Translations under genes and position numbers: made by a program
Notes under the pieces: generated by a model
Told to the model about the DNA's origin: nothing
What the model saw: the letters and a program-made list of their open reading frames with translations, nothing else
The model's database searches: none
In this document: positions 1,221 through 63,842 of the stretch, piece by piece
Layout: each line of letters starts with the position of its first letter
Position numbering within the stretch: position 1 is the stretch's first letter
Source: Eledone cirrhosa
Taxonomy: Eukaryota
Reading direction: 5' to 3'
DNA length: 64,000 nt
Assembly: GCA_964016885.1 (NCBI GenBank)
Contig: OZ024747.1
Span: 32,674,001-32,738,000 of the forward strand

Positions 1221-4200
1221 CTACATTATCATCATTATCATCACTACCAACATTACCATAATGACCAACATTATCATCATTACCAACATTACCAACATTA
1301 CCAACATTATCATCATTACCAACATTATCATCATTATCAACATTACCAACATTATCATCATTACCAACATTACCATCATTATCATCATTACCAACATTAT
1401 CATCATTACCAACATTATCATCATTACCATCATTATCATCGTTACAATCATTACCATCATTACCATCATTACCAACATTACTATCATTACCAACATTACC
1501 AACATTATCATCATTACCAACATTATCATCATTATCAACATTACCAACATTATCATCATTACCATCATTACCAACATTACCAAAATTACCAACATTACCA
1601 ACATTACCAACATTATAATCATTACCAATATTACCATCATTACCAACATTATCATCATTAGCATCATTACCAACATTACCAATATTACCATCATTACCAA
1701 CATTACCAACATTACCATCATTACCATCATGAGCAACATTACCATCATTACCAACATTATCATCATCACCAACATTACCAACATTATTGTCATTATCAAT
1801 ATCAACATTATCATCATTACCAACATTACCATCATTACCAACATTATCATCATTATCATCATTACCAACATTATGATCATTACCAACATTACCATCATTA
1901 TCAATATCAACATTATCATCATTACCAACATTACCATCATTACCAACATTATCATCATTACCATCATTACCAACATTATCATCATTATCAACATTACCAT
2001 CATTATCAACATTATCATCATTACCAACATTACCAACATTACCATCATTACCATCATGATCAACATTACCATCATTACCAACATTATCATCATCACCAAC
2101 ATTACCAACATTATTGTCATTATTAACATGACCTACAGTATCATTATCAGCAACATTACCAACATTATCATCATTACTAACATTACCAACATTACCATCA
2201 TTACTATCATTACCAACATTACCAACATTACGATCATTACCAACATTACCAACATTATCATTATTACCATCATTAACAACATTATCATTATTACCATCAT
2301 TATCATCATTACCAACATCATCATCATGACCAACATTACCAACATTATCATCGTTACCATCATTACCATCATTATCATCATTACCAACATTATCATCATT
2401 ACTAACATTGCCAACATTATCATCATTAACAACATTACCAACATTATCATCATTACCAACATTACCAACATTATCATCATTACCAACATTACTAACATTA
2501 TCATCATTACCAACATTACCAACACTATCATTATTACCAACATTATCTCATTACCATCATTATCATCATTACCAACATTATCATTATTACCATCATTATC
2601 ATCATTACCAAAATTATCATCATTACCATCATTATCATCATTACCAACATTATCAACATTATCATCATTAGCAACATTACCAATATTATTATCATTACCA
2701 ACATTACCAACATTATAATCATTACCATCATTATCAATATTACCAACATTATCATCGTTACCATCATTATCATCATTACCAACATTATCAACATTACCAC
2801 CATTACCAAGATTACCATCATTACCAACATTACCAACATTAACATCATTACCAAGATCATCATCATTACCATCATTACCAACATTATCATCATTACCATC
2901 ATTACCAACATTACCAACATTACCAACATTACCAACATTACCAACATTACCATCATTATCATCATTACCATCATTATCACCATTATCAACATTATCATCA
3001 TTACCAACATTACCAACATTACCATCAATAGCAACATTACCAACATTATCATCATTACCAACATTATCATCATTACCATCATTACCAACATTATCATCAT
3101 TACCATCATTACCAACATTACTAACATTACCATCATTACCATCATTACCAACATTACTATCATTACCAACATTACCAACATTACCATCATTACCAACATT
3201 ACAAACATTATCATCATTACCATCATTACCAAACTTACCATCATTATCATCATTACCAACATTATCATTATTACCAACATTACCATCATTACCATCAATA
3301 TCATCATTACCAACATCACCATCATTACTAACATTACCAAGATTACCAACATTATCATCAATATCATCATTATCATCATTACCAACATTATCATCATAAC
3401 CAACATTATCCTCATTACCAACATTATCATCATTACCAACATTACCATCATTATCAATATCATCATTATCATCATTACCAACATTATCATCATAACCAAC
3501 ATTATCATTATAACCAACATTATCATCATTACCAACATTACCATCATTATCATCATTACCAACATTATCATCATTACCAACATTATCATCATTACCATCA
3601 TTATCATCGTTACAATCATTACCATCCTTATCATCATTAGCAACATTATCATCATTACAATCATTACTACATTATCACCATTATCATCACTACCAACATT
3701 ACCATCATGACCAACATCATCATCATTAACATCATTATCATAATTATCATCATTACCTACATTATCATCATTACCATAATTACTATCATTACCAACATTA
3801 TCATCATTATCATCATTACCAACATTATCATCATAACCAACATTATCATAATTACCAACGTCGTCATCATTACCATCATTACCATCATTACCAACATTAC
3901 CAACATTACCAACATTACCAACAATATCATCATTACCAACATTATCATCATTACCATCATTACCAACATTATCATCATTACCATCATTACCAACATTACC
4001 AACATTACCATCATTACCATCATTACCAACATTACTATCATTACCAACATTACCAACATTACCATCATTACCAACATTACAAACATTATCATCATTACCA
4101 TCATTACCATCATTACCAACATTACCATCATTATCATCATTACCAACATTATCATTATTACCAATATTACCATCATTACCAACATTATCATCATTACCAT

Positions 4201-48239: not shown

Positions 48240-50125
48240 GGATTCTTCGAAAAGACCATAAAACGGGCAGTGACCCTGTCACGGGACCACCACACGGCCA
48301 GTCTGTGGAGCTAACATTGCTAGTAACTACAGACTGTCCCACTTCCTCTCCCTGATCATACGCCCCATCATTGAAATGTCCCCAGATGTATGTGACAGCA
48401 CGGAGGACCTCCTCAGCAGAATCGGCGAGAGTAACCGATCTAGGGACCTAACAAACTGCATAATAGGTAGTATGGATGTTGTGTTCCTGTATCCATCTAT
48501 TGATGTGGATTTTGCTGTAGAGAAATGCGTAGAAATGATCAGTGAGAGCAATGTTGAGTTCCGTGGGATTGATACCAGTGAGTTGGGATTCCTACTTAAA
48601 CTTACCTATAGTAATAATTACCTAGACACATATGACCTTAGCAACCTGTGCCCTACAAGACCAGCAAGAGGAAGACCACCTACCATTAAGTCGATGGCCA
48701 AGAAAACCCACACAGATAGATGGAACGGGTGGACCAGAGCCATACGGACACCCGAAAACCACGATGAACTGAAGAAAATGATTGCACATGCGGTAGGGGC
48801 CAGCATAAAACTAACCCTTAAGGAACATATGTTCAAATTTAATGGAAAAACATATGCCCAAGAGGAAGGAGCAGCCATTGGTGTTAGCATTGCAGGCGAC
48901 ATAGCTAACTTATTCATGGTATGGTGGGACAGTAGACTTAAACTTAAACTTAAAGAACAATTAGAAGACCCCTTAACCCTGATAATGTACTCCCGCTACG
49001 TTGATGATATAAACATCGTAGTTAAGACACCCCCACTAGAGAACAGTCAGGAACTAGAGAAAAACACAATGGAAAGCATCCTGCAAATAGCTAACTCCAT
49101 CCACCAGAGTATTAGAGTTACTATAGACTACCCAAGTAAACACCCCAACCATCGATTACCTGTACTAGACACAGAGCTCTGGTTAGATACCATTAATAAC
49201 AAAAAACAAATTCTCCATTCCCATTTTGCCAAACCCATGACTTCCAAACATCTGATCCACCGAAACTCAGCTGTTTCGGACCATACCAAAATCAACATAC
49301 TGATTGCGGATTTGGTACGGGTGATGAGAAACGTGTCCCGCATGTGCAACCCCGAAGAACTAGAGAGACACATACAACACTTCATCCACCGTATGCAGTT
49401 CTCTGGTTACAATCAGAGAGATAAAATCAGAGTGTATAGAGGAGCCAGAACCAAATGGGAAAAAATGGTAAATAATGACACAAATGGGACCTGCCCCTTG
49501 TATAGGAGCAAATTTTGGAATAGAATAGAAAGAACTAGGAATAAGACTAATAGAATAAACTCATGGTATGATAGCAATAAATACCAGAGTGTAATGTTCA
49601 TCGATACAACCCCTAGAGGTGAATTAGCTTACAAATTTAGAAGGGCCCTAGATAAACATAAACTCAATATTAAGATAGTAGAAAGACCAGGTACCTCCGT
49701 AAAAACACTTATTAGAAAGACATACCCTTTTCAAAGACCCCCATGTATAGATAAGAAATGTATAACCTGTAAAATAAGCCCCCATATTAACTGCAAAACT
49801 AGAAATGTAGGGTATAGCATAAGATGTACTGAAGGACAATGTAGAGACAGAAATATAGTGTACATAGGTGAGACAGCTCGTAGTGTAGGGGAACGGATAA
49901 GTGAACACTGGCGAGACCTTCAAGATAGTAAAGAATCATCTGTACTCTACCAACATGCTAAAATAGAACATAAGGGTAAATTAGAGAACATAGAAATAAA
50001 AATAGAATCTACACAGAAAAGACGCAATGTTTAGACAAATCACAGAGGCAATAAACATAAAAGAATTACAACCAACATTAAATAGAAAATATGAGTGGAA
50101 CAGCAACATCACAACTTATAATTAA
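48240..50125 (+). pseudogene. PLE reverse transcriptase + GIY-YIG endonuclease (main open segment 48376-50034; frameshifts at ~48290 and ~50018)
   Basis: RT motifs KDHK..P.RP, GSMDVVFLYPSI, GAAIGVSIAGDIANLFM, YSRYVDD, LPVLD. Linker CIDKKCITC (Cx4CxxC). Endonuclease NVGY...YIGET.RS..ER..EH...H...H. Removing one A at ~50018 continues DAMFRQITEAINIKELQPTLNRKYEW to TAA at 50123-50125. Confidence 0.9.
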
Positions 50126-50326
50126 GGACAAAATGAAAACACACACGCACATAGAACAAACAACCAACCGGTAACATGTAAATAAACAAATAAATAAACG
50201 AATATAAACACACACAGACACCCGGATGTGGCGCATGCGCAGACTGAGCATACAACCCACGCACAGAAACAAAATGGCGTAGGACAGAACAAAGGAGAGG
50301 CACAAAAACAAAGAAAAGAATCCCCA

Positions 50327-50369
50327 GTCACTGACGAGGTCACAGAATGTGTGACGAAAGAACTTTGAC
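50327..50369 (+). ncRNA. Minimal type I hammerhead ribozyme in PLE 3' pLTR
   Basis: Stem I GTCA/TGAC, core CTGACGA (50331-50337), extra G, 6-bp stem II GTCACA/TGTGAC, GAAA (50356-50359), minimal stem III, CUU triplet. Confidence 0.75.
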
Positions 50370-50537
50370 AATATATAAACAACTATCTGGTTGTGGAACC
50401 AACCAACCAACCAGAAATTTATAAATTCCTAAATTTATAAATTTATTATAATAAATTGAAGTGAAAGCAACAGGTGCGTGTGTTTCTTATTGGCAACATG
50501 ACCCTCCCAAAGTATAACAATATATATATATATATAT

Positions 50538-54069: not shown

Positions 54070-54550
54070 GAATGTGTATATATATGTTGTGATGTTGTGT
54101 GTCTCTTTCTCTCTCTATATGTATGAGTGTGTGTGTATATATATCTGTGTGTGTATGTGTATATAGATGTGTGTATATGTATATGTGTATGAGTATATAT
54201 GTACATGTATATGAATATGTGTATACATATGTGTGTATATGTGTGTCTCTCTATATGTGTATGTATATATGTGCGTGTATGTATATATATATGTGTATGA
54301 GTATATATATATATATATGTGTGTATATGAGTATATATATATATAAATATATATATATATTGTATATTTCTAGATTTGTTGGTTTCACAGAGTTAATCTG
54401 GTAATTCATCCACAGGATGAATTAGCCATGGGCTCATAATGAATATGATAAATAATAAATATGATTCTGCTACATGCATGGTGTCATCCCATATACAAAT
54501 GTTATTTTTAGACACATAAACCCAGCATTTATCATCTGTGTATATGTATG

Positions 54551-54617
<67 letters not shown>
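54070..54617. repeat. (TG/TA)n microsatellite tracts
   Basis: Direct inspection; pure (TA)n at ~54555-54617. Confidence 0.9.
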
Positions 54618-54621
<4 letters not shown>

Positions 54622-55245
54622 ATAAATTAACAGAGCCATAGACTCTCATTATTCCCTGTCAATAATGTGCTCAAAGGAAAAGGAATCCTGAGCTCTTTAA
54701 AATACAATATGTTGAAAAGGTAACACACTAGAGAGAGATAGTGCGCCATCAATAAAACGGGGAAAACCAAGTCTATGGCTTCGTTAATTTATTGTGATAT
54801 TTTGCTCCTTATAACAGTCTCTCCTCTTTCTCTGTTTGATTGGACACACTTCTATGAGTGGTTTTTGGGCTTCTCTTTCTAGCAGCTCGTCCTTTAGATA
54901 CCACTGGTTCACTGTCCTACGCACGCTGTCACATCTCTCTGCCGCGTGTAGCTGGATGGTCGCTTTAGATTCTTTTAGAGTTGTCTGGAATGTGTAGCCT
55001 TGCAAGCGCTGATGAACCATAGGCTATTCCATTTCAGTTAACAACCTCCTGGCGAAACAGATCTCTTTCGATTTGTACGCGTGTGTTATATAGTTATAGA
55101 GGTCGTATATACATTTTAATTTATATTTTTAATTATTGTGTGTCTACCCTGCCTTCCATAGATTATAGATTCCATGCACTGGTCGTTTTCCCTGTTCTAT
55201 TGATGGCGTACTATCTCTCTCTAGTGTGTTACCTTTTCAACATAT

Positions 55246-55246
<1 letters not shown>
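54614..55246 (+). mobile_element. Non-autonomous HHR-bearing element, family A (~538-nt circularly permuted monomer with inverted 5' arm)
   Basis: Minus-strand arm 54614-54767 plus + arm 54770-55246. 54706-54767 is the reverse complement of 55185-55246, and 54614-54644 is the reverse complement of 54770-54800. (TA)n on both sides; no credible ORF. Confidence 0.8.
54993..55090 (+). ncRNA. Full-size type I hammerhead ribozyme
   Basis: Stem I GCG/CGC with distal extension. Core CTGATGA (55009-55015). Stem II CCA-t-AGG...CCT-cc-TGG with an A.C mismatch at 10.1-11.1. GAAA (55054-55057). Stem III CAGATC/GATTTG. GUA triplet; predicted cut after 55077. Confidence 0.8.
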
Positions 55247-55279
<33 letters not shown>

Positions 55280-55334: not shown

Positions 55335-55444
55335 TATTAACAATTGTTTCATTGATCAGGTGAGTCTAAAGGCCGCTAATCACTCGAAGTTGCGTCACTC
55401 AACCTTAAATACAGGATTTACCTCGGATCAAATCATCAGAATAT
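55335..55444 (-). ncRNA. Type I hammerhead ribozyme with palindromic stem III and long stem II
   Basis: Minus strand: TATT-CTGATGA-T-TTGATC-[~68 nt]-GATCAA-T-GAAA-CAATTG-TT-AATA; ACAATTGT is a perfect palindrome; GUU triplet. Confidence 0.75.
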
Positions 55445-58374: not shown

Positions 58375-58429
<55 letters not shown>

Positions 58430-58438
58430 TAAAATAAC

Positions 58439-58510
58439 AGATTAAAGTTTAAGCAAAGAATCGCTGCTTTCACTCTTAACGGGATCTTCTGAAACTAACA
58501 AAGTCAATCT
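58439..58510 (-). ncRNA. Variant hammerhead (CAGAAGA core), 3' pLTR copy
   Basis: Minus strand: GTTT-CAGAAGA-T-CCC-gttaa-GAG-T-GAAA-GCA-gcgattctt-TGC-TT-AAAC, with distal stem I AGATTGA/TTAATCT. Confidence 0.6.
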
Positions 58511-59433
58511 GTAAACGCAGAAATGGATATTTCAAAAAACGTTACAACCGGAGGAAGACAGGAAGACGATGCCTTGGTTCGTGGAAACGTTCGCCGGCAA
58601 AGAACGGGAAAAAACAAATATAATACGTCATTAATAGGAGCGGTGAAACCAATTACGCGCAAAGACAGAACCACGTTTATGGTATAAAAGAGGTCGTAGA
58701 CTAATGTTCTCTTAGGTGGTTCATAGAGACGTTCTCTGGCAATGAACGAAAAAAACGAAGATAATACGTCATATGTGGAGCGTGGAGAACAATAGCACGC
58801 AAAGACAAAACCACGTAAATGGTATAGCAGAAGTCGTAGACTAAAATTCTTACTAGGATACCGAATGAATCTCCGCTTCAGAGTTAAGAACAAAGTAAAT
58901 AAATACAATACAGAAGTAAAAGAAATAAATAAATACATACACGCAAACAAATACGTACATACGCAAGCATACGCAAAACACTTACCATAGGTATACAAAA
59001 CCACGCACATATAAATATGTGTGTATGTGTATGTATGCGTGTATACAAATAAATAAATAATTATATAAACGTATATAAATAAATACGTATATAATAAGCC
59101 CACACACATACCTACATGTAAATACACGAATGTTCGGAGACGTAAGTCAACCAAAACATGAAGTACACATATACACACACCCTACATACGTATGAACCTG
59201 CATACTCACACAGACGCAAAACTCCCGTATACACATAGCCAAACCATATGTACCAGAATATATAAAATTATACGCCATAACATAAACAATCAAATATACG
59301 TACGAGAAGGTATCCGTACCTTCACAAAACATACGGGTAATATATACATACCTATGCCTAATAAGTAATGGTATAAACAAAACATATACTAAGCTCCCAC
59401 ATCAAGAGGTAAAATATCCACAAATAGATCGTA

Positions 59434-61575
59434 CTATCCGTTAGGGTATAACGTGGGGCTGTAATACAGGAAAGTTTTGTGCAATTTATGTTTACAAGCC
59501 GAAATTGCCTCCGATTTTTTGTTTAAGATGTGGTCTGTGGCATAGAGTATTTCCAGGGCCTCAGCGGCGCAGAGGTCACATGGTCTTTTATTTCCGTTAT
59601 ACGATCTAGCCCTAGCTAGGATCTCCCAGTTTAAATTATATTGGGTGTGGTTGTCTTTTAGACTCCAGATATAAGCTGAAAGTGACGTCATATTCCTTCT
59701 TAGAGGGTAACGAAAAGAATGGGTATGCAAGTAAAGACGCTGCTTGAATCTATTGGCGGTTAACCCTATGTAGGCCCTAAGGGACGTGGGTGTTACAACC
59801 TTACATTTATAGACAATGTTACTAGAGAGGCATTTCCCGGATAGGGGGCAATCGACCCGATTCCTACAATTACAGTTAGTACTAACTACAGGGTTGCACG
59901 TGTTCCTACGGCTAGGTAGTTTAGCTAAATTTGAAGCTGTGATGTTATGTGCAAGGTTAGGAGTCGTAGAGTAAGAAATTTTAATAGTATTTCTATTAAA
60001 AATTTTACTATATTTATGTGTAGGGGGAAAAATGCTTCGTAATAAGGGAAAGAAAGATCTTAGCTAATGGTGTGTCCACCTCCATATTATATGGTGGGTT
60101 ATACCAACAAATACCACGGGTTCTATTTCTTCTAGGTCTATTTTCGTACTCTGTATATGCTACCTTATCGACAACTCCACTTCGAGCAAGAGCTTCATTG
60201 TAATAAGTGGAATGGTCGTTGAAAATACGCTCGTTAGTGGAAAGACGGGAAAGCCTCAACGAAACGTTTCTTACCAGGTTCTTGGTTATGCTGGCAGGAT
60301 GGTTGGAATGCTTACTTATGTAATTAAGCGTATCATTCGGCTTTCTATACGGGTAATACAACCCATTCAATAAATTGAGGGTAACGTCGAGGTAATTAAC
60401 GACCGAGAGATTGGCCTCAACCTGTATAGAGAGGTTGAAGCCTTTAAAGAAGGCTGTGAGTTCTTTTCTGAACCTGTCGCAAGCACGAGGTCCGCACTTA
60501 GTCATGGTCAAAAGACCATCGTCACGGTACAAACCACCGCCCGCGTTGGGGAATTCGTCCTTGATAGAGAAAAGAAGGAAAAGGCCGATAAGATCAGTAA
60601 CCTCCGCAGAATCACTGGCGCCCATACTCACGTCGAATGGGGTACATTTGGATTTTTTAATCCAAATAGAGTCGTCGAAATTAATCACCGACTTTCGGGC
60701 ATTGAGGATGACATCAACTTCGAAATCCTTAACCACTGTGAGTGTTTTAGCGAAATTGATAGCTCTAAGGAGAAGTGGTAAAGTGATGGAGGAGTAGTAA
60801 TTGTTGATGTCGAATTGGATAAAACGGCAATGTTCTTTGTTACATATGCCGTTCAACCAATCAATCACCGCGAAAGAATTGTTCCACAGTGCAAGAGGGG
60901 CCAAACTTCTAATTTCAGGTATAATTCTATCAAGAATCGTTTTACTAAGTCTACCTAAATCGGACTTCGTAGGGTTAATAAGCCGAATAGAGGGGTTGTT
61001 CGGAAAATTGGATTTGTGATCCTTCAGGGTAAAGTGAGGAGAAATAGGGTCCAGAGGTTCGGTCCGGTCCAGGATTTTGAGATCAGATGTGATTTTAAAC
61101 CCAGCATCGTTGATTTCATTGATGACGCACCGATTAGTTTTACGGTAATCCTTAGTTACAGCATTATGTAGTAGTTGATGGTAAGTACTGCGCTCCACTT
61201 GATATCGGTTGCCAGTTTTGTCGGAATGGACATGCACGGCATTAGAATCCTTAATAGAACGAATTCTATTCTTCAGGTCTTGCTGGAAGGAACTTCTTCT
61301 ATTCCGAAATTTGATACTCCGAATGAGTTCCAAGACATCATTTTCGAAGGGTAGCAATGCTGGGTTACACGGGGGGGGGGGGGGGGGTTATTATAGGTTT
61401 TAAATCCAAATTTATCCTGTTTGTTGTCTGCTTTTCGCGGATTATCGAAATAAAAGGCACGCCAACGCAACCTTTTAATGAACGCGTCTGTTTTCTGTAT
61501 CAGGAGTTTTAGGTATGTTTTCCTGATTGGTACGGGTATGTTCTTTGTAGAAATATTCAGATGTTGTTTCTGCAT
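59434..61575 (-). CDS. PLE RT + GIY-YIG endonuclease (~710 aa reconstructed; two homopolymer frameshifts)
   Basis: N-terminus STKNIPVP...FIKRLRWRAF. RT HSDKTGN, LKDHK...IRLINPTKSDLG, FIQFDINNYYSSI, DVSMGASDSAEVTDLIG, GLYRDDG, VNYLDV. Linker CNCRNRVDCPLSGKC (CxCx5C). Endonuclease NIVY...YIGLT..RFKQR; CDLC...E...LN...CKH. Breaks only at the G17 run (61371-61387) and the A5 run near 60028-60032; I found no other in-frame stop. Confidence 0.88.
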
Positions 61576-61722
61576 GATGAATATAAGTCAGTAGAGTGCT
61601 CAACCGAGGGAGCCAAATAGTAATAATAATAAATTTGAAGACTAAAATCCAAAGAGGGCTCGATAAGGATAAATATATATCAAATATATAAGAACCGTAG
61701 AGCAAATATTTATTAAAATAAC

Positions 61723-61794
61723 AGATTAAAGTTTAAGCAAAGAATCGCTGCTTTCACCCTTAACGTGATCTTCTGAAACTAACAAAGTCAATCT
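61723..61794 (-). ncRNA. Variant hammerhead (CAGAAGA core), 5' pLTR copy
   Basis: Same fold; stem II reads CAC/GGG. Confidence 0.6.
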
Positions 61795-62473
61795 GTAAAC
61801 GCAGAAGTGGATATTTCAAAAAACATTACAACCGGAGGAAGACAGGAAGACGATACTTTGGTTCGTGGAAACGTTCGCTGGCAAAGAACGGGAAAAAACG
61901 AATATAATACGTCATTAATAGGAGCGGTGAAAACAATTACGCGCAAAGACAGAACCACGTTTATGGTATAAAAGAGGTCGTAGACTAATGTTCTCTTAGG
62001 TGGTTCATAGAGACGTTCTCTGGCAATGAACGAAAAAAACGAAGATAATACGTCATATGTGGAGCATTGAGAACAATAGCACGCAAAGACAAAACCACGT
62101 AAATGGTATACCAGAAGTTGTAGACTAAAATTCTAACTTGGAGACCGAATGAATCTCCGCTTCAGAGTTAAGAACAAAGTAGCAATAGAAATAAATACAC
62201 GCTCCACATATGATGTATTATCTTCGTTTTTTTCGTTCATTGCCAGAGAACGTCTCTATGAACCACCTAAGAGAACATTAGTCTACGACCTCTTTTATAC
62301 CATAAACGTTGTTCTGTCTTTGCGCGTAATTGTTTTTCACCGCTCCTATTAATGACGTATTATATTCGTTTTTTCCCGTTCTTTGCCAGCGAACGTTTCG
62401 ACGAACCAAAGTATCGTCTTCCTGTCTTCCTCCGGTTGTAACGTTTTTTTGAAATATCCACTTCTGCGTTTAC

Positions 62474-62545
62474 AGATTGACTTTGTTAGTTTCAGAAGAT
62501 CCCGTTAAGAGTGAAAGCAGCGATTCTTTGCTTAAACTTTAATCT
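62474..62545 (+). ncRNA. Variant hammerhead (CAGAAGA core), inverted pLTR copy
   Basis: CAGAAGA at 62493-62499, GAAA at 62513-62516, stem III GCA/TGC, CUU triplet, stem I GTTT/AAAC. Confidence 0.6.
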
Positions 62546-62645
62546 GTTATTTTAATAAATATTTGCTCTACGGTTCTTATATATTTGATATATATTTATC
62601 CTTATCGAGCCCTCTTTGGATTTTAGTCTTCAAATGTATTATTAT

Positions 62646-62727
<82 letters not shown>

Positions 62728-62780: not shown

Positions 62781-62835
<55 letters not shown>

Positions 62836-62837
<2 letters not shown>

Positions 62838-63804
62838 CAGACGTAAAATAAGAAAATTATAAAATTAACTTACTTACTAAAAAATCACTTCCAACTAATT
62901 AGTTTCTCGAATGGAGTAAATATATTTTCCGAAGAAACACATAGAAAATCATTCCGTCATCAGGAAAGTCTTTTTCCGTATAGGTTTCCAGGCATAGCGA
63001 GGACACTGCCTGGAGACCTATACGGAAAAAGACTTTCCTGATGACGGAATGATTTTCTATGTGTTTCTTCGGAAAATATATTTACTCCATTCGAGAAACT
63101 AATTAGTTGGAAGTGATTTTTTAGTAAGTAAGTTAATTTTATAATTTTCTTATTTTACGTCTCTCATATTATTGTTCTGCAACCCCATGCATTGAACCAC
63201 ATTGTTAATAAGACAAAACCTATATATTTGCTAGCATTGATGTGCATCTGTGTGTATATAAATGTTACTAGATATAAATTCCTTATAATTATCTCCAATT
63301 CATTTGTCGAGCAATATTTGGCCATGACTGCTACTATGGTAGTAAGCTGGCCGCTGTCTTAATAACCACTCGCTTTCCACTGATTGACCTCGATGTCACG
63401 TGATTGATTCTTTTTGAATTTGCCACAGACGAGGAGGCAGTGATTTTCTCAATGGCTTGGAATCCAGTCCACGCTTTGCTATTTCCATTCCACTGAATTA
63501 TTTTTTTAATAAGTTTCCAGTGTCCTCGCTATGCCTGGAGACCTATACGGAAAAAGACTTTCCTGATGACGGAATGATTTCCATGTTTTTCTTCGGAAAA
63601 TATATTTACTCCATTCCAGAAACTAATTAGTTGGAAGTGATTTTTTAGTAAGTAAGTTAATTTTATGATTTTCTTATTTTACGTCTCTCATATTATTGTT
63701 CTGCAACCCCATGCATTGAACCACATTGTTAATAAGACAAAACCTATATATTTGCTAGCATTGATGTGCATCTGTGTGTATATAAATGTTACTAGATATA
63801 AATT

Positions 63805-63810
<6 letters not shown>
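62836..63810 (+). mobile_element. Non-autonomous HHR-core element, family B, copy 2: inverted arm (62836-63006) + ~1.5 tandem 525-bp monomers
   Basis: tgcctggagacctatacgg at 63007 and 63532 gives a 525-bp period. 62840-62994 is the reverse complement of 63007-63161. CTGATGA-CGGA...TTCG-GAAA-ATATAT-TT occurs three times. (TA)n on both sides. Confidence 0.88.

Positions 63811-63842
<32 letters not shown>

What the first reader, a model, noticed from the sequence alone, without database searches (positions are those of the whole stretch)
54614..55246. Second, unrelated ~538-nt element whose two arms close into a circle around a full hammerhead (family A)
Seen: the + arm runs 54770-55246. The inverted arm, read on the minus strand, repeats the last ~62 nt of the + arm, adds 61 new nt (54705 to 54645), then re-enters the first ~31 nt of the + arm. 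The template therefore closes on itself as a 477+61 = ~538-nt monomer with no ORF. It holds a full type I HHR (GUA, 6-bp stem III). Inference: a circular or tandem RNA template, i.e. a second retrozyme-like family of nearly the same size as family B with no evident sequence similarity to it.
Basis: partly seen in the sequence, partly recalled or inferred. Interest (0 to 1): 0.82.

Follow-up and report, generated by a model that had tools for sequence, protein, structure and literature searches.

The report
Dispersed hammerhead retroelement with Penelope footprints
This is one copy of an abundant 539-base repeat with a hammerhead (self-cutting RNA) motif, inserted into TA runs as two mirror-image arms that end at two fixed sites, a pattern that likely comes from a Penelope-type jumping-gene enzyme copying a probably circular RNA from both sides of a DNA break.

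Summary
The two arms close into a 538-nt unit (family majority 539 nt) that carries a type I hammerhead motif. It is a dispersed family in this 3-Gb genome: I examined 157 distinct loci, and 63 hold an arm longer than one unit.

Arms end at two fixed sites 84-88 nt apart, abut (TA)n and are variably 5'-truncated. Of 67 head-to-head insertions with both ends at those sites, 66 use one of each. That is the known Penelope-like (PLE) inverted/'tail' footprint. No copy continues into a PLE ORF from a fixed point, so it is non-autonomous; its partner was not identified.

A circular template is inferred (about 55%): both passes within an arm share subfamily variants, and 5' ends ignore the ribozyme cut. 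No RNA data exist. Unlike described retrozymes it forms no tandem arrays (longest arm 911 nt, 1.7 units).

Corrections: A10.1 is the family state, not a lesion; the unit has a non-significant 104-codon ORF; this copy has one ribozyme and is likely a dead product. The scan noted the same footprint before in other families of this genome.

The parts
54541..54617 (.). (TA)n target tract, left flank
   Evidence: TRF period 2, 38.5 copies
54614..54769 (-). Inverted, 5'-truncated arm: unit positions 415-539 then 1-31; ends at the distal fixed site D (31)
   Evidence: 97.4% to family majority sequence; 126 of 288 family segments end at 23-35
54614..54701 (-).
   Evidence: P ends at 482/486, D end at 31
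54769..54770 (.). Blunt head-to-head junction of the two arms' 5' ends
   Evidence: sequence; 68 of 81 two-segment junctions in the family lie within -5..+5 nt
54770..55246 (+). Main 5'-truncated arm: unit positions 1-478; ends at the proximal fixed site P (482/486, last bases merge with the TA run)
   Evidence: 93.5% to family majority sequence; 99 of 288 segments end at 478-488
54980..55042 (+). Predicted 19-pair helix between the 5' flank (54980-55000) and loop II (55021-55042); a pseudoknot relative to stems I and II
   Evidence: in the MFE fold; 91.9% of cells paired in 31 copies
55001..55085 (+). Type I hammerhead motif: stem I 55001-08/55078-85 (this copy has a private C>A at 55005 that breaks one pair), core CTGATGA 55009-15, A10.1 (55016) facing C11.1 (55053), stem II 55017-19/55050-52, GAAA 55054-57, stem III 55057-63/55070-76, predicted cut after 55077
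   Evidence: sequence, alignments, pair counts; cleavage untested
55242..55279 (.). (TA)n target tract, right flank
   Evidence: TRF period 2, 19.5 copies

Best explanation
This is a non-coding 539-nt hammerhead-bearing repeat inserted in (TA)n as two head-to-head, 5'-truncated arms, likely made by an unidentified Penelope-like element (PLE) protein that cut both target strands and copied a probably circular RNA from two fixed start sites. Shown: the unit closes on itself; arms end at two sites 84-88 nt apart, one site per arm; 5' ends vary and join almost bluntly; arms run up to 1.7 units. Inferred: rare copies long enough to hold two hammerheads are transcribed, cut twice and ligated to a 539-nt circle. 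A PLE endonuclease/RT pair would then prime one cDNA at site P and one at site D, and the two cDNA ends would be joined by end-joining. The window copy has one ribozyme with a broken stem I pair, so it is likely a dead product and not a source.
For: PLE footprint (confidence about 0.9): 225 of 288 segments end at D or P, and 193 of those 225 ends abut TA. Head-to-head clusters: 66 D+P, 1 P+P, 0 D+D, 31 with one or both ends elsewhere; P about 5e-19 against free choice. The P+P case (L065) has identical 30-nt flanks, i.e. a secondary inverted duplication. Subsets whose queries do not select the partner arm give 12 of 12 and 16 of 16 D+P. This matches the two RT start sites that define the PLE tail and the cutting and extension of both strands in vitro (PMC11167929), and the tail on one end with (TA)n bias (PMC8557442, PMC3846280). 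Same template for both arms and both passes: rare variants are shared at 0.61% (arms) and 0.40% (passes) of columns against 0.045% for shuffled partners; two passes of one arm give 79 minor/minor and 20 discordant of 316, against 34.5 and 109 if independent. The template is not a cut linear monomer: 181 of 288 segments cross the cut site, and 5 of 223 5' ends lie within 5 nt of it, about 4.6 expected. Six arms span two hammerhead positions, four with both cores matching the motif. Hammerhead helices are kept across subfamilies (93.8% of 1137 cells; one G-C/A-U compensatory change in stem I). The circular unit folds at z -4.0 against 40 shuffles.
Against: No tandem array was found in two searches aimed at long copies (longest arms 911, 886, 861 nt), and TRF reports no 480-600 period in 161 loci. 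A constant stopping rate fitted to 28 partner arms predicts about 2% of arms above 911 nt, so an endless template needs an added limit such as strand displacement after one turn. Three independent long arms start at 189-191 of the upstream turn, which would suit a linear RNA 5' end. The 20 discordant cells exceed the roughly 8 expected from background, 6 of them at column 535; D versus P arms were 68 same and 63 different on a noisier column set. The A10.1-C11.1 mismatch is family-wide, and the core's predicted minimum-energy fold is an inactive one. Only 1 of 9 predicted retrozymes cleaved in 10.64898/2026.07.22.740005, and cleavage was not needed for PLE insertion in vitro (PMC11167929). No homologous PLE terminal repeat was found.
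Confidence: 0.58

Rival explanations
1. Same PLE-driven two-arm insertion, but the template is a linear RNA: a miniature 'repeat-spacer-repeat' transcript of about 900 nt starting near unit position 134-190, or linear monomers joined by template jumps. No covalent circle; the hammerhead is weak or vestigial.
For: Ceiling near 900 nt and no arrays; three arms begin at 189-191; a modest excess of discordance between passes; A-C mismatch at the base of stem II; uncleaved linear RNA is the PLE substrate in vitro (PMC11167929).
Against: Whole subfamily haplotypes are present in both passes, with no direction bias (10 versus 10); two independent repeats would not keep this without conversion or re-copying from one unit. 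L236 runs past 189 to 134. Indels at the cut site are not exceptional (rank 42 of 53 windows). If initiation needs RNA 3' of the start site, as for Anolis Poseidon (PMC11167929), genomic copies of at most 1.7 units cannot template arms longer than one unit (inference).
Confidence: 0.32
2. The unit is simply the terminal repeat (pLTR) of an autonomous PLE, and these copies are its 5'-truncated fragments.
For: Ends, tail, TA targeting and a type I hammerhead are all pLTR features; an AUG-started frame begins in the hammerhead and runs across the tail region, as PLE ORF starts overlap pLTRs (PMC3846280, PMC11167929). Three loci have PLE ORF pieces directly 5' of an arm in the same sense (L068, L074, L227).
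Against: Those three junctions fall at different unit positions (494, 121, 76) and in different PLE families or ORF positions; 96 segments read from D back into the same unit; the 104-codon frame stops before D, is not significant (22 of 300 shuffles) and has no longer homolog; the 150 listed translated hits show no frame above 338 codons.
Confidence: 0.05
3. The inverted arm is a fold-back (self-primed) copy of the first arm, as proposed for rotifer Penelope (PMC3846280), or a local DNA duplication.
For: The arms share variants more than chance; one locus (L065) is a true inverted duplication with identical flanks.
Against: In the window each arm holds sequence that the other lacks; the same holds in 13 of 54 simple D+P insertions, and 5' ends differ by more than 20 nt in 47 of 54. 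A fold-back would not end at the other fixed site in 66 of 67 cases.
Confidence: 0.03

Closest known systems
Metazoan non-LTR retrozymes (Cervera and de la Pena 2020, PMC7229834, passages and parts 3-4 of 6 read; Li, Clavereau and Pollet 2026, 10.64898/2026.07.22.740005, parts 1-3 of 5 read, supplements not seen)
   Same: Non-coding unit with a type I hammerhead, GC 41%, self-paired circular fold, head-to-tail run-through, co-occurring PLEs; axolotl HHR_Amex2 also has a mismatch at the base of helix II and still cleaves.
   Different: Dispersed insertions of at most 1.7 units and no tandem arrays, so a tandem-repeat-first pipeline would miss it; 539 nt against about 170-400 nt in PMC7229834 (inside the 51-972 range of the preprint); no homologous PLE pLTR found; expression, cleavage and circles not shown.
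Endonuclease-positive Penelope-like elements (Craig et al. 2021, PMC8557442, passages; Arkhipova et al. 2013, PMC3846280, passages; Frangieh et al. 2024, PMC11167929, parts 1-2 of 4)
   Same: 5' truncation, partial tandem, inverted 5'-truncated partner arm, tail on one end, two fixed start sites, (TA)n target, hammerhead upstream of the ends.
   Different: No RT or GIY-YIG ORF; tail 84-88 nt against 30-40 nt in those papers (other PLEs of this genome show about 60 and about 94 nt); a full stem III hammerhead with a long predicted pseudoknot, where the PLEs seen here carry minimal ones.
Non-autonomous PLE derivatives such as Chlamydomonas MRC1 (passage in PMC8557442)
   Same: Non-coding, PLE-type repeats formed on insertion, head-to-tail copies.
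   Different: Those resemble their autonomous partner at the 3' end and belong to a clade described as lacking canonical hammerheads; here no partner similarity was found.

Membership tests
Non-LTR retrozyme | Type I hammerhead motif in the unit | tested here: met
   Core, three stems and GUA in sequence; 93.8% of 1137 cells paired (structure drawn from the majority sequence); Rfam models do not hit; A-C mismatch at 10.1-11.1
Non-LTR retrozyme | No protein-coding capacity | tested here: met
   104-codon frame not significant (22 of 300 shuffles); no homolog among 183-2000 aa proteins (weak negative)
Non-LTR retrozyme | Organised as tandem repeats, dimers to multimers | tested here: not met
   Longest arm 911 nt = 1.7 units; TRF 0 of 161 loci; only the 40 best candidates per search were scored, so rare arrays are not excluded. 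Six arms span two hammerhead positions
Non-LTR retrozyme | Low GC (<45%), small self-paired unit | tested here: met
   GC 41%; circular MFE -149, 65% paired, z -4.0; larger than the 170-400 nt of PMC7229834
Non-LTR retrozyme | Self-cleavage and accumulation as circular RNA | not testable with these tools
   No RNA holder listed; needs bench work or raw RNA reads
Non-LTR retrozyme | Homology to the pLTR of a PLE | tested here: inconclusive
   None to PLE families C (30 loci) or G (20 loci; the one hit is a separate family-A insertion) or the window's other PLE ends; the genome's other PLE families were not surveyed
Penelope-like element (insertion signature) | 5'-truncated arms with an inverted partner joined head to head | tested here: met
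   98 head-to-head clusters against 67 single clusters in 157 loci
Penelope-like element (insertion signature) | Two fixed 3' ends, tail on one end | tested here: met
   66 of 67; tail 84-88 nt
Penelope-like element (insertion signature) | AT-rich or microsatellite target | tested here: met
   193 of 225 D/P ends abut TA; both flanks TA in 50 of 66 D+P insertions
Penelope-like element (autonomous) | ORF with RT and GIY-YIG endonuclease | tested here: not met
   No recurrent ORF junction in 109 loci or in 56 free 5' flanks of 157 loci

The most novel reading that the evidence does not exclude
A PLE enzyme pair copies one 539-nt RNA circle from two fixed sites, one per target strand, and the family has been kept alive through several subfamilies by the few insertions just long enough to hold two hammerheads. 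It would stand for a hidden class of 'sub-dimer' retrozymes: thousands of dispersed copies that tandem-repeat surveys cannot see, whose insertions record both start sites and the enzyme's run length on a circle.
Probability: 0.45. Interest if true: 0.68.

Novelty: new variant of a known kind. Interest (0 to 1): 0.45.

Why it matters
PLE mobilisation of animal retrozymes through circular RNA is proposed in PMC7229834 and 10.64898/2026.07.22.740005, but the insertion footprint is not shown in the parts I read; searches listed no paper that shows it. This family carries the PLE two-start-site signature on a non-coding hammerhead unit. It sharpens 'tail often on one end' to a near-strict rule (66 of 67) and names the few two-hammerhead loci to assay. 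It also shows that retrozyme-like families can escape tandem-based counts. The weight is reduced because each ingredient is known, the circle is only inferred, and this scan has already noted the same footprint in other families of this genome.

Tried and rejected
Rfam: no hammerhead hit. RNA evidence: no RNA holder listed; the one listed run X1, of unknown kind and kept as contigs, covers the unit but not this copy's unique left flank and tells nothing on expression or on an empty site.

Partner search: family C PLE (window 48274-50520; 29,702 first-look candidates) shares no sequence with A. Family G PLE touches A in L067 and L227, but has its own hammerhead and a tail of about 94 nt; in L067 both arms end at their proximal sites, so it is not a D+P chimera. 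G remains only a weak candidate. The 104-aa frame as a PLE N-terminus: no longer homolog, no long frame.

RNA-editing scars: A>G and T>C rates are equal on the hammerhead strand (11.4 and 11.3 per 1000), so not supported. Linear monomer cut at the ribozyme as template: rejected. Negative correlation of arm lengths (rho -0.46, n=55) is not significant in the subset whose query does not select for length (rho -0.15, P 0.59, n=16). A direct count of two-hammerhead loci genome-wide was not obtained; the long-copy searches score only 40 candidates each and one search missed the diverged L235 and L236. No earlier scan finding matched this sequence or this place.

Full report
Observation. The window is G000:C7:32674001-32738000 of a 3.0-Gb genome. 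Between two (TA)n tracts (54541-54617 and 55242-55279) lie a minus arm (54769-54614) and a plus arm (54770-55246) that meet head to head. Against the family majority sequence (539 nt) the plus arm covers positions 1-478 at 93.5%, and the minus arm covers 415-539 and 1-31 at 97.4%. The hammerhead core, GAAA, stem III and GUA (predicted cut after 55077) are present, although Rfam reports nothing. Family B (period 525 nt) is unrelated (best E 0.34-0.47).

A dispersed family. DNA searches gave 1,381-3,551 first-look candidates; these are not copy numbers, and 40 were scored each time. Of 188 fetched loci, 157 are distinct places with 288 family segments; four more long copies came later. Identity to the majority sequence has a median of 95% (5th-95th percentile 87.8-97.8), with at least three subfamily groups. 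The unit closes in the genome itself: 96 segments read through position 31 into the same unit, and 63 exceed one unit (favour long copies).

Insertion footprint. On the hammerhead strand the 3' ends are fixed: 126 segments end at 23-35 (site D, 111 exactly at 31), 99 at 478-488 (site P, mostly 482 or 486) and 63 elsewhere. 193 of the 225 D/P ends abut TA. 5' ends are scattered. Head-to-head clusters number 98: 66 D+P, 1 P+P, 0 D+D, 15 D+other, 12 P+other and 4 other+other; 67 clusters are single. The 31 clusters with an 'other' end were left out of the test; many of those ends lie just short of the complementary site. 66 of 67 gives P about 5e-19 against free choice. The exception, L065, has identical 30-nt flanks and is a secondary inverted duplication. 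Queries that do not select the partner arm give 12 of 12 and 16 of 16. Junctions are nearly blunt (68 of 81 within 5 nt).

This is the PLE signature. PMC8557442 (passages) describes 5' truncation, inverted partner copies, a tail often on one end only and (TA)n bias. PMC3846280 (passages) describes the optional tail on one inverted pLTR. PMC11167929 (parts 1-2 of 4) shows in vitro that a PLE protein cuts and extends both strands and starts at two internal RNA sites that bound the tail. Fold-back self-priming does not fit: each window arm has sequence the other lacks, as in 13 of 54 simple D+P insertions, and 5' ends differ by more than 20 nt in 47 of 54.

Non-autonomous. PLE ORFs are common near copies, but direct same-sense junctions fall at different unit positions and in different families (L068 at 494, L074 at 121, L227 at 76). 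The closed unit has a 104-codon frame from the core's AUG, intact in the majority sequence; 22 of 300 shuffles reach the same stop-free length, no longer homolog was found, and the 150 listed translated hits show no frame above 338 codons. PLE families C and G share no sequence with it. The partner is unidentified.

The ribozyme. In 31 copies chosen across subfamilies, 93.8% of 1,137 cells keep the 37 named pairs (stems I-III plus a 19-pair helix between the 5' flank and loop II); slid controls give 20-42%, and stem I has one G-C/A-U compensatory change. The structure was drawn from the majority sequence and the copies are related, so this is moderate support. Position 10.1 is A in 130 of 165 segments, C in 21, G in 13, and A in all subfamily groups: the A-C mismatch is the amplified state. 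An axolotl hammerhead with a U-U mismatch there still cleaved 22% in an hour (PMC7229834, part 3), but 8 of 9 predicted Xenopus retrozymes did not cleave (10.64898/2026.07.22.740005, part 3). Without the flank helix the core is predicted to prefer an inactive fold (-21.4 against -13.6 kcal/mol), and the circular MFE (-149, z -4.0) also blocks it. The window copy has one hammerhead and a private C>A at 55005 in stem I, so it is likely not a source.

Circle or linear tandem. For one unit read more than once: 181 segments cross the cut site, and only 5 of 223 5' ends lie within 5 nt of it. The two passes of one arm agree on subfamily state (217 major/major, 79 minor/minor, 20 discordant; 34.5 and 109 expected if independent). 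Rare variants are shared between passes (29 in 7,220 columns) and between arms (65 in 10,736) about ten times more often than between shuffled partners (0.045%). Six arms span two hammerhead positions, four with both cores matching; these could release a monomer. Against an endless template: the longest arms are 911, 886 and 861 nt, TRF finds no array in 161 loci, and a constant stopping rate predicts about 2% of arms above 911 nt. Three arms start at 189-191, discordance is above the roughly 8 expected, and a noisier D-versus-P comparison gave 68 same and 63 different. Concordance would also arise from a homogeneous tandem source or from template jumps. I put the circle at about 55-60% and a linear or jumping template at about 30%. 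No RNA run was listed, so expression is open.

Comparison and novelty. It works like a metazoan non-LTR retrozyme mobilised by a PLE, as proposed in PMC7229834 (Discussion) and the 2026 preprint (its supplements were not seen and may list related families). It fails the tandem-array feature, so I file it as a variant and not as a member. Searches listed no paper showing this footprint on a retrozyme. Earlier scan notes (unchecked) report the two-arm, two-site pattern in 310- and 422-nt families of this genome and a Penelope-driven 467-nt family, all with tandem arrays; my reading was stated before I saw them, and they are not independent evidence. What this family adds is the sub-dimer ceiling, the 66-of-67 rule and the two-pass test. 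Interest 0.45.

Noticed in passing
window:1-43850: About 43.6 kb satellite built on a 9-bp unit (TACCATCAT type) with GC skew near -0.93.
   Followed up: no
window:47970-50520: PLE family C: 586-codon RT plus GIY-YIG frame (48274-50034), minimal hammerhead at 50331, inverted arm with a tail of about 60 nt; 29,702 first-look candidates and open frames up to 1,257 codons elsewhere.
   Followed up: partly
window:57624-58375 and 62783-63811: Family B: 525-nt hammerhead-like unit with the same two-arm, TA-flanked layout; unrelated in sequence to family A.
   Followed up: partly
window:55280-57620 and 58422-62650: Two further PLEs with inverted arms: one ends at the TA run directly right of family A and has a hammerhead-like motif on the minus strand near 55340-55440; the other has RT and GIY-YIG frames on the minus strand.
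   Followed up: no
window:47504-47960: Long palindromic TA-flanked element that shares ends with family C but has no ORF; possibly a fold-back non-autonomous derivative.
   Followed up: no
L258:5675-7546 (same place as L227): A family-A arm continues, without TA and with a 6-nt overlap, into 1.2 kb of PLE family G in the same sense; the rest of G is not on the other side. Template switch or insertion with deletion.
   Followed up: partly
L100:1080-1590 and L091:1497-1935: A family-A D arm meets, head to head, an arm of another short TA-ending repeat family (no TA at the joint in L100); candidate mixed-template insertions.
   Followed up: partly
L121, L232, L235: Three independent long arms begin at unit position 189-191 of the upstream turn; start site or strong RT stop.
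   Followed up: no
unit column 535 (window 54649 region): A/G state differs between the two passes of one arm in 6 of 37 arms against a 2.6% background.
   Followed up: partly
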